From Rhizobium sp. Q54 (GTDB taxonomy: Bacteria > Pseudomonadota > Alphaproteobacteria > UBA828), in NCBI GenBank assembly GCA_945902735.1, contig CAMDNF010000004.1:1-53048 (forward strand): DNA of 53,048 nt, in the 5' to 3' direction. Positions 24,608 through 53,048 of this stretch are shown here, piece after piece (the stretch's first letter is position 1; every line of letters starts with the position of its first letter). The notes under the pieces are model-generated. The model was not told the origin of the DNA and searched no databases. It saw only the letters and a list, made by a program, of their open reading frames with translations. The position numbers and the translations under genes are program-made.

Positions 24608-24756
24608 ACCCCTCGCCCCTTGTGGGAGAGGGAGGGGCCCAGCGCGAAGCGCTGGGAGGGTGAGGGGATTGAGGCCGGCAAAGCAAATTAGCCGGCATGT
24701 CACGAGCCCCCCTCACCCGCCGCTGCGCGGCGACCTCTCCCACCAGGGGAGAGGTG
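24608..24756. repeat. REP-like family C inverted pair (CCCCTCACCC-hairpin-CTCTCCC...GGGAGAG)
   Basis: Arms at about 24608-24667 and 24707-24756 in opposite orientation; the second lies inside the 3' end of mtaB. Confidence 0.88.
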
Positions 24757-26013
24757 AATACTTTCTTCGCACATTTTGGCGACCAACCAACCGCCGTCAC
24801 GCGCGGTCGCGATGGCTGAGACAATCTCGCCCGACGCATAGTCACGTCCCTCGACGCGCACCGGCAAATAATGCTCGCTACGGCCCTCGCCATCGCGTTC
24901 GATCAGGACCGAAACGGTCTTTCCAATCATATCATCGAGCGCGTCGCGCAAACGTTCCTCGCCGCGCGCGCGCAATCGTGCCGCGCGCGCCTTGCGCAGC
25001 GCGACCGGCAATTGCGGCATGTGTGCCGCCGGCGTGCCCGGCCGCGACGAATAGGGGAAGACGTGCAAATAATCGAGCCGTGCTTCATCGACCAGGCGCA
25101 GCGTATTGTCGAACATGGCATCGGTCTCGGTCGGAAAGCCCGCGATCAGATCGGCGCCAAACTTCATCTCAGGGCGCCGCTCATGCAGCCGCTCAACCAG
25201 CGCGATCACATCGGCGCGATTATGGCGGCGCTTCATGCGCTTCAAGATCATGTCATCGCCGGCCTGCACGCTGAGATGCAAATGCGGCATCAGGCGCGGC
25301 TCGTTACACAACAGACTCTCGAGCTCATCATCGATCTCGACCGGATCGATCGATGAGAGACGAAGGCGCGGCAATTCAGGCACGGCCGCCAGCAAGCGAC
25401 GCACCATCTGGCCAAGCGGCGGTTTGCCCGGCAAATCCGCGCCATAGGCACCAAGATCGATGCCCGAGAGCACGACCTCAGGATGACCATGCTCGACCAG
25501 ATTTCGAATCTCGCGCGCGATTTCGCCGATCGGAACGCTGCGGCTCGGGCCCCGACCAAAAGGAATGATGCAAAAGGTGCAGCGATGATCGCAGCCGTTT
25601 TGCACTTGCACGAACGCCCGCGCGCGATTTTCGAAGCCCGCGATCAAATGCGAAGCCGTCTCGCGCGCCATCATCACGTCATTGACCACAACGCGTGTCG
25701 TCACGCTCGGCATGAAGCTCGCTGTGTCGAGCTTGTCGAGATTGCCGATCACCCGATCAACCTCGGGCATCGCGGCATAGCGCGTGGGATCGACTTGCAC
25801 GCCACAACCGGTAACGATGATGCGCGCGTCGGGCCGCTCGCGCCGCGCGCGACGGATCGCCTGGCGCGCCTGGCGCTCGGCCTCGGCGGTGACCGCACAG
25901 GTATTGACGATCACCGCGTCCTCAAGCCCCGCCTCGCCCGCTTTGGCGCGCATGACCTCGGCCTCATAGGCGTTCAGCCGGCAGCCGAAGCTAATAACGT
26001 CGAGCGCGCTCAT
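24700..26013 (-). CDS. mtaB: tRNA t6A37 methylthiotransferase MtaB
   Basis: [19 protein letters not shown], radical [48 protein letters not shown]. Confidence 0.93.
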
Positions 26014-40981: not shown

Positions 40982-43035
<2,054 letters not shown>

Positions 43036-51038: not shown

Positions 51039-52322
51039 TCAAGCCGCGGACGGGTTCTCTCTGGTCTTCGCCCTCGGATGCGCCTTGAGGTATTGCGCGC
51101 GCATTCCCTCATCCGCGACGCCGGTATAACGCTGCGTGGTTGAGAGCGAGGCATGGCCCAATAATTCCTGGATCGTGCGCAAATCGCCGCCGCCCGAAAG
51201 CAGATGCGTCGCGAAACTATGGCGCAGCGCGTGCGGCGTCGCGCTATCGGGCAGACCGAGCGACTGACGTAAACGCGCCATCAAGGCTTGCACGGCACGC
51301 GGGCTAAGCGTCCTCCCTTGCACACCGACGAAGATCGGATCATGGGCGCCGATGGCCTGCGGGCAGGCGGCGAGATAATCGGCGAGCGCCTCGCGCACGA
51401 TCGGCAACACCGGCACCGCGCGCTCCTTATTGCCCTTGCCGCGCACGATCAGCGTAGCGACGCGCGTGCTTGTATCAGCCACACCCCTCACCCGCTCCCC
51501 TTGGGCCTTCGCCCAAGGCTCGCCTCCCTCTCCCCCAAGGGGAGAGGGGTCAAGGGAAGTTGGCCCCGCGCCTTCCCTTCTTTCCTCCTCTCCCCTTGGG
51601 GGAGAGGGAGGCGGGCGAAGCCCGCGGGGTGGGGTGTCGAGAGAAGGCGGCCGCGAGTCTGAGGTTTTCGTCTCATCTCCCCCGTGGGACGAGAGCAACG
51701 CCGCCGCGCCGATCTTTTTTCCTGCCCCCTCTCCCCTCGGGGGAGAGGGAGGGGTGAGGGGTGTCGAACGGATTGGTGAGGGGTCGGAACCGATCAACCG
51801 CTCGATATCATTACGGCGGAGAGACAGCGCCTCGCCGAGCCGGAGCCCACTGCCATAGAGCAACAGCAACACGGCCGTGTCGCGCTTCGCGATCCAGGCG
51901 GGCGCACGCGGATCCTCCAAATCATGCACCGCCTCAACCGTCGCGCGTGCGTCATGCACGCTCAAGGGGCGCGGCAACACGCGCGGCAGCTTCGGCCCGC
52001 GCAAGGTAGCGACGGCCGAATTGCCGGCCAGATTATTGCGCTCGAGATGGCGGAAAAAACCGCGCAGCGCTGAAAGCGCGCGCGCGTTGGACGATTTCGC
52101 CAAACCACCTGTCACGCGGTGTGCCAAATAGGCGCGGAAATCGCTGACTTTAAGCGCGCTCAAACTCGTGAGCGTCGGCGCCGCGCCAACATGATCGGTC
52201 ACGAACGCAAGAAACGCCGCGAGATCGCGCTGATAGGCGCTGAGCGTATGGCTTGAGGCGCGTCGTTCATGCGCAAGCCAACGCCGCCAGGACTCGATCG
52301 CGGCGGCAAGCGCTTGGTCCAT
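51039..52322 (-). CDS. xerC: Tyrosine recombinase XerC with an in-frame repeat-derived insertion of about 105 aa
   Basis: SAM-like N-domain (HTLSAYQRDL); catalytic R161 (YGSGLR), K296 (GKGNK), H364/R367 (PHALRHSFATH), H390 (LGH), Y399; located among core genes. Confidence 0.85.
   Translation of the reverse strand: MDQALAAAIESWRRWLAHERRASSHTLSAYQRDLAAFLAFVTDHVGAAPTLTSLSALKVSDFRAYLAHRVTGGLAKSSNARALSALRGFFRHLERNNLAGNSAVATLRGPKLPRVLPRPLSVHDARATVEAVHDLEDPRAPAWIAKRDTAVLLLLYGSGLRLGEALSLRRNDIERLIGSDPSPIRSTPLTPPSPPRGEGAGKKIGAAALLSSHGGDETKTSDSRPPSLDTPPRGLRPPPSPPRGEEERREGAGPTSLDPSPLGGEGGEPWAKAQGERVRGVADTSTRVATLIVRGKGNKERAVPVLPIVREALADYLAACPQAIGAHDPIFVGVQGRTLSPRAVQALMARLRQSLGLPDSATPHALRHSFATHLLSGGGDLRTIQELLGHASLSTTQRYTGVADEGMRAQYLKAHPRAKTRENPSAA
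51481..51785. repeat. Cluster of family C palindromes inside xerC
   Basis: Units at about 51481-51550, 51586-51637, 51672-51695 (degenerate) and 51726-51763, plus a half-unit at 51776-51785; outer acacccctcaccc / gggtgaggggtgt inverted repeat. Confidence 0.9.
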
Positions 52323-52992: not shown

Positions 52993-53048
52993 TGTATTTT
53001 CTGCTCCTTTGCCACCGCCGCCATGGCCCGGTAACTCACCCCCCCCCC

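What the first reader, a model, noticed from the sequence alone, without database searches (positions are those of the whole stretch)
51460..51800. XerC catalytic domain interrupted in frame by about 105 aa of translated palindromic repeats
Seen: XerC is 427 aa. Between the catalytic Arg helix (..LRRNDI, aa 173) and the Lys hairpin (TLIVRGKG, aa 290) lie 116 residues. The DNA is a cluster of four family C units plus a half-unit, bounded by the inverted repeat acacccctcaccc/gggtgaggggtgt, read as PLTPPSPPRGEG, PPPSPPRGEE and PSPLGGEGG. There is no stop or frameshift, and R161, K296, H364, R367, H390 and Y399 are all intact. Established: XerC is normally about 300 aa with only about 5-12 residues at this position and resolves chromosome dimers at dif; in-frame palindromic insertions into proteins are known from Rickettsia RPEs. 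Inference: several successive insertions preserving frame suggest selection for a functional protein carrying a large Pro/Gly-rich loop. Alternatives are regulation of XerC by mRNA hairpins, DNA-level excision by the repeat's cognate nuclease, or recent inactivation. This is the strongest candidate for new biology in the window.
Basis: partly seen in the sequence, partly recalled or inferred. Interest (0 to 1): 0.8.

Follow-up and report, generated by a model that had tools for sequence, protein, structure and literature searches.

The report
Triplex-motif repeats translated inside XerC
A chromosome-dimer recombinase gene (xerC) of an uncultured lake bacterium carries, in frame, 106 extra codons made of a known bacterial repeat (BoxC/PIT/"triplex motif"). 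The repeat sits in a surface turn of the catalytic domain and looks like tolerated selfish or structural DNA rather than a new protein domain.

Summary
ORF 51039-52322 (-) encodes a 427-aa XerC ortholog with all catalytic residues. A 318-nt, 106-codon insert (window 51468-51785) interrupts it in the beta1-beta2 turn, between the Arg-I helix and the Lys hairpin. It is not a misassembly: identical DNA occurs on at least 5 independent contigs, and a 97%-identical Lake Baikal MAG has the same insert.

The repeat is a named family: the G/C-rich intrastrand triplex motif (BoxC/PIT/TM_ECO; Holder 2015). Here it forms inverted doublets, mostly with a hairpin-bearing second loop.

All six members of the window's clade carry an insert with the same right junction. 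A second clade acquired one independently.

Flanks are under purifying selection (omega about 0.12-0.16). The insert peptide is not (7 nonsynonymous : 1 synonymous), and it is predicted disordered. The repeat units are conserved at nucleotide level (0/62 differences where flank pS = 0.51), while spacers drift.

The element has almost no stop codons, so only the frame-preserving length needs selection.

The same motif sits in frame in QueA and FtsY and fuses LutB-LutC in other phyla.

Verdict: a new example of a known phenomenon (as with Rickettsia RPEs), involving a repeat previously reported as always intergenic in E. coli. No evidence supports an adaptive loop.

The parts
51039..52322 (-). 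xerC coding sequence (427 aa plus stop), 4 nt downstream of the fsa/tal gene and convergent with lpdA
52035..52298 (-). N-terminal SAM-like core-binding domain (aa 9-96)
   Evidence: PF02899, 1.9e-16; pLDDT 88-98
51786..51965 (-). First part of the catalytic domain (aa ~120-179), including Arg-I R161 (51840-51842) and beta1 'RNDIERLIGS'
51468..51785 (-). In-frame insert, aa 180-285 (318 nt), made of triplex-motif repeats. Translated as a P/G/S/E-rich, predicted disordered loop
51042..51467 (-). Second part of the catalytic domain (aa 286-427): beta2-beta3 hairpin with K296 (51435-51437), H364, R367, H390, Y399 (51126-51128)
51481..51548 (-). Long-loop TM unit R, ancestral and shared by all of clade A: CCCTCTCCCC-ttg-GGGGAGAGGG + hairpin CCTTGGGCgaagGCCCAAGG + GGGTGAGGGGTGT
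51549..51585 (.). Spacer of the ancestral inverted doublet. Diverges freely between orthologs
51586..51637 (+). TM unit L, the inverted partner of unit R: palindrome + hairpin GCGGGCgaaGCCCGC + GGGGTGGGGTGT (third arm slightly degenerate in the window, consensus in L012)
   Evidence: (I1: 37-nt arms, 89% complementary)
51638..51726 (.). Spacer and degenerate palindrome (51676-51693) of the second, lineage-specific doublet. Present only in the window and L012
51727..51764 (+). Canonical short-loop triplex motif CCCTCTCCCCTCGGGGGAGAGGGAGGGGTGAGGGGTGT. Its 3' end forms the 13-nt inverted repeat with 51481-51493
   Evidence: (I8)
51775..51784 (+). Extra third-arm half-unit GGTGAGGGGT (encodes D180-P183), part of a 22-nt local duplication
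   Evidence: (D3, I12)
24610..24755 (.). Second locus of the same family: inverted doublet between two genes. Its right unit supplies the last ~17 codons of ORF 24700-26013 (-)
41846..41979 (.). Third locus: intergenic inverted doublet. The unit at 41846-41904 matches the xerC unit of orthologs L007/L013 at 56 of 59 nt

Best explanation
**What it is.** This is the genuine, syntenic xerC of an uncultured freshwater alphaproteobacterium. G/C-rich intrastrand-triplex repeats of the BoxC/PIT/TM_ECO family have colonised its catalytic domain. Each unit has a pyrimidine arm CCCTCTCCC, a purine arm GGGAGAGGG and a third arm GGGTGAGGG. Here the units are mostly arranged as inverted doublets with a hairpin in the second loop.

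**History.** A doublet entered the codons of the solvent-exposed beta1-beta2 turn in the ancestor of the clade. The window/Baikal lineage later gained about 150 nt more, giving 106 extra residues.

**Why it survives.** The element has almost no stop codons, so any copy whose length keeps the frame gives a full-length protein. Purifying selection on XerC removes the rest.

**What the insert does.** It is translated passively as a disordered Pro/Gly/Ser-rich loop that projects from the end of the sheet opposite the Lys-bearing beta2-beta3 hairpin. XerC most likely still resolves chromosome dimers at dif. The peptide itself is not under selection. What is maintained is the DNA: the triplex arms and hairpins. 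This could be by selection on DNA structure or by gene conversion from other family copies.

**Shown:** anatomy, orthology, repeated colonisation, selection pattern, predicted disorder.
**Inferred:** retained activity, surface position relative to DNA, mode of spread.
For: **Gene identity.**
- Two-domain tyrosine recombinase with the R-K-H-R-H-Y set.
- Best NCBIfam model is XerC. With the insert removed in silico it matches as one stretch, 2-294 of 295, at 299.9 bits. The naturally insert-free relative P0005 scores 291.5.
- Synteny is conserved.
- Foldseek top hits are all Xer recombinases.

**Insert position.** At XerD residues ~159/160, the beta1-beta2 turn. Residues 181-288 have pLDDT 35-52 and no secondary structure, while the core is at 87-98.

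**Not an artefact.**

**Repeat identity.** Exact matches to the published TM_ECO pattern and its long-loop variant, 1 + 4 in the window against 0 expected (definition in PMC4666352).

**History.**
- Clade A (bootstrap 99): 6 of 6 members carry inserts with the same right junction.
- Its sister P0005 is empty.
- P0004 in clade B (bootstrap 99.5, sister to the empty P0006 at 100) has an independent insertion read in a different frame.

**Selection.**
- Flank omega is 0.12. The insert has 7N:1S (Fisher p = 0.002).
- Insert divergence is 8/309 against flank pS = 0.115 (P = 8e-9).
- The right unit of L007 and L013 is identical (0/62) despite flank pS 0.51 and all-site p 0.217 (P = 3e-7), while spacers diverge with indels.
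- The variable second loop is a hairpin in 22 of 31 copies, with 29 different sequences.

**Stop-poor element.**

**Generality.** The same motif is in frame in QueA and FtsY, fuses LutB-LutC in other phyla, and forms the C-terminal tail of a MiaB/RimO-like ORF in this window.
Against: - No direct evidence that the full-length protein is made or active.
- Only 53 kb of the genome is visible, so a second xerC cannot be excluded.
- The nucleotide-level conservation of the units goes beyond simple passive tolerance and is not explained mechanistically.
- Ortholog L007 has Thr in place of the hairpin Lys, which could hint at relaxed function in one lineage.
- The protein scores below the NCBIfam XerC equivalog cutoff (about 300 against 335), although its insert-free relatives do too.
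- Holder et al. link these motifs to local instability, which fits poorly with long-term retention inside a gene.
Confidence: 0.7

Rival explanations
1. The repeat-encoded loop has been co-opted. The long disordered Pro/Gly-rich excursion would give XerC a new property, such as altered synapsis or partner contacts with XerD/FtsK, and would be kept for that reason.
For: All six sampled members of clade A retain an insert over flank dS up to ~0.86. The same turn was colonised twice, and other XerC lineages carry unrelated short inserts there.
Against: - Insert 7N:1S against flanks 11N:30S.
- Length varies from 32 to 106 extra aa.
- Spacer peptides are unrelated between orthologs.
- The independent insertion uses another reading frame of the unit.
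- No predicted structure.
- Conservation tracks DNA palindromes, not codon positions.
Confidence: 0.08
2. The intragenic repeats serve the host at the DNA or RNA level. They might pause replication or transcription, modulate xerC mRNA stability or translation, or provide a recombination or protein-binding site. The nucleotide-level conservation would then reflect that function.
For: Units are far more conserved than synonymous sites. The hairpin is kept through compensated changes. The insert RNA folds at -197 kcal/mol, z = -7.1. TM oligonucleotides form stable triplexes and block polymerase in vitro (PMC4666352).
Against: - PIT/TM elements showed no promoter, terminator or in vivo polymerase-blocking activity in E. 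coli (PMC4666352).
- No terminator, promoter or Rfam family is present here.
- Close relatives (P0005-P0008) do without the insert.
- Gene conversion from other family copies explains the conservation equally well. The window's 41.9-kb copy matches the L007/L013 xerC unit at 56 of 59 nt.
Confidence: 0.12
3. xerC is being inactivated. The insert would have crippled the enzyme, and the gene would be a young pseudogene or would be backed up by another recombinase.
For: A 106-aa insertion inside a catalytic domain. L007 has lost the hairpin Lys. The rest of the genome is not visible.
Against: - Flank omega is 0.12-0.16 in every pair across dS 0.13-0.86.
- All catalytic residues are intact in the window.
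- No stop or frameshift in any of 7 insert-bearing orthologs.
- Synteny and tight coupling to fsa are conserved.
- No other integrase in the window.
Confidence: 0.05
4. Assembly artefact: a collapsed or chimeric repeat placed inside xerC.
For: Repeats are a classic source of misassembly in metagenomes.
Against: Identical xerC DNA in five contigs from different samples and assemblers. A 97%-identical MAG has the same architecture and 8 substitutions inside the insert. Five more orthologs have related inserts at the same codon position.
Confidence: 0.01

Closest known systems
BoxC / PIT / TM_ECO G/C-rich class II intrastrand triplex motif (Holder et al. 2015, PMC4666352; earlier Bachellier, Hoyne/Maher)
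   Same: Same three arms in the same order (CCCTCNCCC, GGGNGAGGG, GGGNGAGGG). The first loop is 3-6 nt. Copies frequently occur as inverted tandems. Arms are highly conserved and loops are variable. No transposase is associated. One collapsed doublet (L006) resembles the hairpin-preserving deletions they describe.
   Different: Holder et al. report the motif as always intergenic in E. coli MG1655. Here it is translated inside a catalytic domain. Most copies have a 15-37 nt second loop carrying its own hairpin, against 3 nt in the definition, so the published ITxF search (loops 1-6) would miss them. The host is an alphaproteobacterium, and exact matches occur well outside Proteobacteria. The copies are retained stably across speciation rather than being visibly unstable.
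Rickettsia palindromic elements (RPE; Ogata et al. 2000, 2002, as summarised in PMC10969869 and PMC3184786)
   Same: Palindromic repeat DNA inserted in frame into housekeeping genes. The host protein stays intact, and the insert is thought compatible with fold and function. The same family is found both between and within genes.
   Different: An unrelated G/C-rich sequence family in free-living bacteria. The units are shorter and accumulate as nested or adjacent doublets (3-4 units in one site). There is no conserved encoded peptide, because frames differ. Here the DNA units stay at family consensus instead of decaying with the host gene.
REPINs (REP doublets forming hairpins) mobilised by RAYT transposases (Bertels & Rainey 2011, PMC3116915)
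   Same: The unit of occurrence is an inverted doublet with a spacer that folds into a long hairpin (37-nt arms, 89% complementary). Doublets are better conserved than spacers. Filled and empty orthologous sites exist.
   Different: No GTAG/CGTC tag. No RAYT was found in the sequence held. Each arm is itself a three-part triplex motif. REPINs are almost exclusively extragenic (14 of 1,067 16-mers overlap genes in SBW25).
Canonical XerC/XerD (E. coli XerD structure 1A0P)
   Same: Domain architecture, catalytic residues, the GKGxKxR hairpin and the C-terminal Tyr helix.
   Different: A 3-residue beta1-beta2 turn in XerD is replaced by a loop of about 110 residues. The score is below NCBIfam's equivalog cutoff, as in insert-free relatives of this clade.

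Membership tests
XerC (tyrosine recombinase, TIGR02224) | N-terminal SAM-like core-binding domain plus C-terminal Phage_integrase catalytic domain | tested here: met
   PF02899 at 1.9e-16 and PF00589 at 6.3e-33, the latter in two stretches
XerC (tyrosine recombinase, TIGR02224) | Catalytic R-K-H-R-H-Y residues | tested here: met
   R161, K296, H364, R367, H390, Y399
XerC (tyrosine recombinase, TIGR02224) | Score at or above NCBIfam's equivalog cutoff (335.15 bits) | tested here: not met
   291 bits with the insert, 299.9 with it removed, 291.5 for the insert-free relative P0005. XerC beats XerD by about 70 bits in all three. The shortfall is a property of the clade, not of the insert
XerC (tyrosine recombinase, TIGR02224) | Orthologous position shared with genes annotated XerC | tested here: met
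   priA-fsa-xerC-lpdA-sucB-sucA in all loci. NCBI names the Baikal protein XerC
XerC (tyrosine recombinase, TIGR02224) | Recombination at dif with XerD under FtsK control | not testable with these tools
   Needs an assay. dif and xerD were not seen in the window
TM_ECO / BoxC / PIT intrastrand triplex motif | Arms CCCTCNCCC, GGGNGAGGG, GGGNGAGGG in this order, with a first loop of 3-6 nt | tested here: met
   5 exact matches in the window against 0 in shuffles. Pattern taken from PMC4666352
TM_ECO / BoxC / PIT intrastrand triplex motif | Second loop of 3 nt (1-6 nt in the ITxF search) | tested here: not met
   Only 51727-51760 qualifies, with a 2-nt loop. The other four have 17-32 nt loops, which are usually hairpins
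TM_ECO / BoxC / PIT intrastrand triplex motif | Intergenic location (stated as 'always' for E. coli MG1655) | tested here: not met
   xerC copies are coding. One copy forms a C-terminal tail. QueA, FtsY and LutBC cases occur elsewhere
TM_ECO / BoxC / PIT intrastrand triplex motif | Forms a purine-motif triplex as single-stranded DNA | not testable with these tools
   Needs CD, NMR or melting experiments. ViennaRNA does not model triplexes
REPIN / REP-RAYT system | Two REPs in inverted orientation with a spacer, folding into a hairpin | tested here: met
   I1 (37-nt arms, 89%, 25-nt spacer). The same layout occurs at 24.6 and 41.9 kb and in L007, L008 and L013
REPIN / REP-RAYT system | Cognate RAYT (Y1 HUH transposase) gene in the genome, flanked by REPs | tested here: inconclusive
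   No HUH...Y..NP motif in six-frame translations of the window and held loci. This is a crude regex, and the whole genome is not available
REPIN / REP-RAYT system | GTAG or CGTC tetranucleotide tag at one end (PMC3733652 abstract) | tested here: not met
   Units start CCCTCTCCCC and end GGGTGAGGGGTGT
Rickettsia palindromic elements (RPE) | In-frame insertion into conserved genes without destroying the host protein | tested here: met
Rickettsia palindromic elements (RPE) | Sequence membership in an RPE family, each with a conserved encoded peptide | not tested
   No RPE sequence was compared. The organism, the G+C content (68% in the insert) and the variable reading frame make membership implausible
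MITE | Terminal inverted repeats | tested here: met
   13-nt perfect inverted repeat. ACCCCTCACCC...GGGTGAGGGGT ends in all orthologs
MITE | Target-site duplication and a parent insertion sequence | tested here: not met
   No direct repeat at the filled/empty junctions. No parent insertion sequence seen
Intein or self-splicing intron | Splicing motifs or a known intron RNA structure | tested here: not met
   Rfam gives only sub-threshold generic hairpin hits. Pfam shows no intein domain

The most novel reading that the evidence does not exclude
BoxC/PIT/TM triplex repeats are coding-compatible, still-active genomic elements. On this reading they invade housekeeping genes in frame across several phyla (XerC, QueA, FtsY, LutB-LutC). 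Once inside, their DNA arms are actively held at family consensus over long times (0/62 differences at flank dS about 0.86), by selection on non-B DNA structure or by copy-to-copy conversion. That would make them a free-living, cross-phylum counterpart of Rickettsia RPEs. It would also be the first comparative evidence (filled and empty orthologous sites, nested growth) that these repeats, always intergenic in E. coli, are mobile.
Probability: 0.3. Interest if true: 0.65.

Novelty: new member of a known kind. Interest (0 to 1): 0.42.

Why it matters
For Xer biology, this identifies the beta1-beta2 turn of the catalytic domain as a site that tolerates more than 100 extra residues. That is useful for engineering and for reading odd gene lengths in annotation.

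For repeat biology, it extends a repeat that was reported as always intergenic in E. coli and is of unknown function (BoxC/PIT/TM_ECO) in three ways:
- It can be translated inside genes.
- Filled and empty orthologous sites, plus nested growth, imply mobility.
- Its arms can stay at consensus inside a gene while the surrounding synonymous sites approach saturation.

The finding also warns annotators. P/G/S-rich 'low-complexity' segments with motifs such as PSPxxGEG or RVRGV in bacterial proteins can be translated triplex repeats. Existing triplex-motif searches (loops of 6 nt or less) also miss the hairpin-loop variant that dominates here.

Tried and rejected
- **Insert peptide search.** Searching the 106-aa insert peptide against 5.8 billion proteins gave no hit at E <= 0.001. 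It is probably filtered as low complexity, so no census of other hosts came from that route.
- **RAYT search.** A regex search for HUH...Y..NP in all held sequence found nothing. This is only a weak negative.
- **Covariation test.** An alignment-based covariation test of the second hairpin was abandoned because copies fall into different registers and lengths. It was replaced by a per-copy shuffle test.
- **Rfam, promoter and terminator scans.** Rfam gave only sub-threshold miRNA-like hairpin noise. The promoter/terminator scan found nothing.
- **Metagenome scan.** It added no new clade-A member and no short allele. The 90% cluster holds only the 427-aa and 429-aa forms and a fragment.
- **First AlphaFold run.** With 15 sequences it gave a poor C-terminal half. 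It was repeated with 119 sequences.
- **Readings considered and rejected.** Intein or intron, tandem-repeat expansion (the units are inverted, not head-to-tail), misassembly, and a Xer-binding dif-like site in the repeat (my inference from composition only; the G/C-rich arms do not resemble the AT-rich dif consensus as I recall it).
Full report
**1.

The minus-strand ORF 51039-52322 encodes 427 aa.
- Pfam finds an N-terminal SAM-like domain, and a Phage_integrase domain that matches in two stretches.
- NCBIfam's best model is XerC, at 291 bits, also in two stretches.
- R161, K296, H364, R367, H390 and Y399 are present. They are invariant or nearly so among 15 and 119 homologs.
- Against the E. 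coli XerD structure (1A0P), the query breaks at XerD residues ~159/160, between 'SDISL' and 'VVRVIGKG'. That is the beta1-beta2 turn.
- From the Arg-I motif to GKG there are 130 residues, against a mode of 18-24 in 120 homologs.
- Measured against the empty site of ortholog P0005, the insert is aa 180-285 = window 51468-51785, 318 nt.

The DNA of the insert contains:
- three exact CTCTCCCCnnnGGGGAGAG palindromes, with 0.01 expected;
- one degenerate palindrome;
- four GGGTGAGGGG-type motifs;
- the 13-nt inverted repeat at 51481-51493 / 51752-51764.

**2. It is not an artefact**

The identical protein is encoded on at least seven contigs. The xerC DNA of five contigs from different samples has no mismatch to the window. 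A Lake Baikal deep-water MAG (L012) is 97% identical and has the same architecture.

**3. What the repeat is**

Each unit has three parts: CCCTCTCCCC-nnn-GGGGAGAGGG, then a short variable segment, then GGGTGAGGGG(TGT). Units occur as inverted doublets separated by a spacer. This is true in xerC, at 24.6 kb and at 41.9 kb.

A text search for the motif led to Holder et al. 2015 (PMC4666352). The repeat is the G/C-rich class II intrastrand triplex motif, earlier called BoxC and PIT. It is defined as CCCTCNCCC-N3-6-GGGNGAGGG-N3-GGGNGAGGG. According to that paper:
- it occurs 3,610 times in 262 proteobacterial genomes;
- it has no promoter or terminator activity and no link to mobile elements;
- it often forms inverted tandems;
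- it is 'always located intergenically' in E. coli MG1655;
- it is associated with local sequence variability and small deletions.

The window holds one short-loop match (51727-51760) and four long-loop matches, against none in shuffles. The long second loop is itself a hairpin. Of 31 copies (29 distinct sequences), 22 fold better than 95% of their own shuffles.

An exact 36-base version of the motif also occurs in Sphingomonas, Planctomycetota, Deltaproteobacteria, Nitrospinota, Enterobacter and others.

**4. History of the insert**

All close homologs sit in the same priA-fsa-xerC-lpdA-sucB-sucA context. I built a tree from XerC with the loop removed.
- **Clade A (bootstrap 99):** the window, L012, P0012, L013, P0003/L007 and P0002/L006. 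All six carry inserts of 32-106 extra residues. Their sister P0005 is empty.
- **Clade B (bootstrap 99.5):** only P0004/L008 carries an insert. It is sister (bootstrap 100) to the empty P0006.

In clade A the right junction is identical: GGGTGAGGGGTGTG, 18 nt, then the beta2 codons.
- The ancestral element is an inverted doublet, still seen in L013 and L007.
- L006 has collapsed it to one unit flanked by the inverted ends.
- The window and L012 gained about 150 nt upstream: a second doublet with one degenerate arm, plus a half-unit.

L008 has different junction spacing and reads its right unit in another frame (QGEG instead of RVRGV). The turn was therefore colonised at least twice.

Unrelated short tandem inserts occupy the same turn in Rhodospirillales-type XerC, which marks it as a permissive site.

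**5. What selection acts on**

Window against L012:

| Region | dN | dS | Nonsynonymous : synonymous |
|---|---|---|---|
| Flanks | 0.015 | 0.128 (omega 0.12) | 11 : 30 |
| Insert | 0.032 | 0.012 | 7 : 1 |

Fisher p = 0.002. The peptide is therefore not under purifying selection.

The insert as DNA nevertheless changes far less than synonymous sites: 8/309 against pS = 0.115, P = 8e-9.

In more distant pairs, flank omega stays at 0.14-0.19 with dS of 0.6-0.9. The right-hand unit is conserved far more than that:
- 0/62 differences between L007 and L013, where flank pS is 0.51 and all-site divergence is 0.217 (P = 3e-7);
- 8/68 between the window and L006, including a compensated pair in the hairpin.

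Spacers between units diverge freely, with indels. The window's intergenic unit at 41.9 kb matches the L007/L013 xerC unit at 56 of 59 nt. The intragenic copies therefore stay at the family consensus. Either the DNA structure is selected, or the copies are refreshed by conversion from other copies. My data do not separate the two.

**6. The protein**

With 119 homologs, AlphaFold gives pLDDT 87-98 for residues 1-180 and 290-350. Residues 181-288 score 35-52 with no secondary structure, and lead directly into strand 289-294. Foldseek's best hits are all Xer-type recombinases. The insert is 18% Pro, 16% Gly and 11% Ser, with almost no hydrophobic residues.

With the insert removed in silico, the protein matches the XerC model in one stretch (2-294 of 295) at 299.9 bits. 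The naturally empty P0005 scores 291.5. The sub-cutoff score is therefore a property of the clade.

From the architecture of tyrosine recombinases, I infer that the turn lies at the end of the sheet away from the Lys-bearing beta2-beta3 hairpin. I could not measure distances to DNA.

**7. Why the frame is open**

The 103-codon insert has 3, 0 and 1 stops in the sense frames and 1, 2 and 0 in the antisense frames. The window's right-hand unit is open in 5 of 6 frames. An open frame is therefore nearly guaranteed. Only the requirement that the length be a multiple of three, roughly a 1 in 3 chance per event, needs the filter of selection on XerC.

**8. Alternatives**

- No shorter allele exists among 5.8 billion proteins, the JGI metagenome contigs or the 90% cluster.
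- No Rfam family, intron or riboswitch is present, and no terminator or promoter.
- The window holds no second integrase.
- The insert RNA is very stable (-197 kcal/mol, z = -7.1). A DNA- or RNA-level role cannot be excluded.

**9. Generality**

The same motif is in frame:
- within QueA (Nitrospinota MAG);
- between the N and G domains of FtsY (deltaproteobacterial MAG);
- through a repeat cluster that fuses LutB to LutC (Ectothiorhodospira);
- as the last ~17 residues of a MiaB/RimO-like ORF in this window.

**10. Comparison with what is known, and verdict**

In-frame palindromic or MITE insertions are established, with Rickettsia RPEs the classic case (PMC10969869, PMC3184786). REPINs give the doublet concept but are almost wholly extragenic (PMC3116915). 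The repeat family itself is published (PMC4666352).

I found no paper combining XerC with such an insertion, and none reporting BoxC/PIT/TM repeats inside coding sequence. That absence applies only to the library searched.

The finding is a real and well-preserved example of a known phenomenon, involving a known repeat in an unreported setting. It is of moderate interest, mainly for what it shows about the repeat family rather than about XerC.

Noticed in passing
window 24700-24760 (ORF 24700-26013, minus strand): A triplex-motif unit supplies the last ~17 codons (…[17 protein letters not shown]) of a 437-aa MiaB/RimO-type radical-SAM methylthiotransferase ORF (UPF0004 + Radical_SAM). This is a second, milder case of this repeat being translated in the same window.
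   Followed up: partly
window 41846-41979: Intergenic inverted doublet upstream of a gene that starts [14 protein letters not shown]. Its left unit matches the unit inside xerC of the distant orthologs L007/L013 at 56 of 59 nt, so the family consensus is shared across genomes whose synonymous sites are near saturation.
   Followed up: partly
L007 3001-4194 (protein P0003): This XerC ortholog reads RGTG (ACG) where all other aligned XerC have RGKG. That is the conserved hairpin Lys, equivalent to K296. It is seen on a single contig only, so it could be a sequencing error or a real loss of a catalytic residue.
   Followed up: no
L066 (Nitrospinota MAG), L072 (deltaproteobacterial MAG), L076 (Ectothiorhodospira haloalkaliphila): The same triplex motif lies in frame inside QueA, between the N and G domains of FtsY, and in a repeat cluster that joins LutB and LutC into one 700-aa reading frame. 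Pfam confirms the host domains on both sides.
   Followed up: partly
window 51786-51822 (xerC sense nt 501-537): Between the window and the 97%-identical L012, 11 substitutions cluster in the 37 nt immediately upstream of the insert. About 1.6 would be expected from the flank average, and the 309-nt insert itself has only 8. This could be a conversion-tract boundary or the repeat-adjacent variability described by Holder et al. It remains unexplained.
   Followed up: no
proteins P0019, P0033, P0057 (Rhodospirillales-type XerC): Unrelated short tandem inserts (…AASGTKAGL… repeated) occupy the same beta1-beta2 turn, giving loops of 30-53 residues. The turn seems generally permissive in XerC.
   Followed up: no
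protein P0006 (367 aa, empty loop): Its N-terminal extension 'PTLTLPRKGGG…PSPLTGEGGEGV' looks like repeat units upstream of xerC that were translated by an over-long gene call.
   Followed up: no
L011 4077-4674: In the empty-site ortholog, a HigB-like toxin / HTH antitoxin pair is inserted between xerC and lpdA. It is absent from the window and the other orthologs.
   Followed up: no
window 53039-53048: The window ends in a run of ten C residues directly after coding-like sequence. This is possibly a contig-end or assembly artefact.
   Followed up: no
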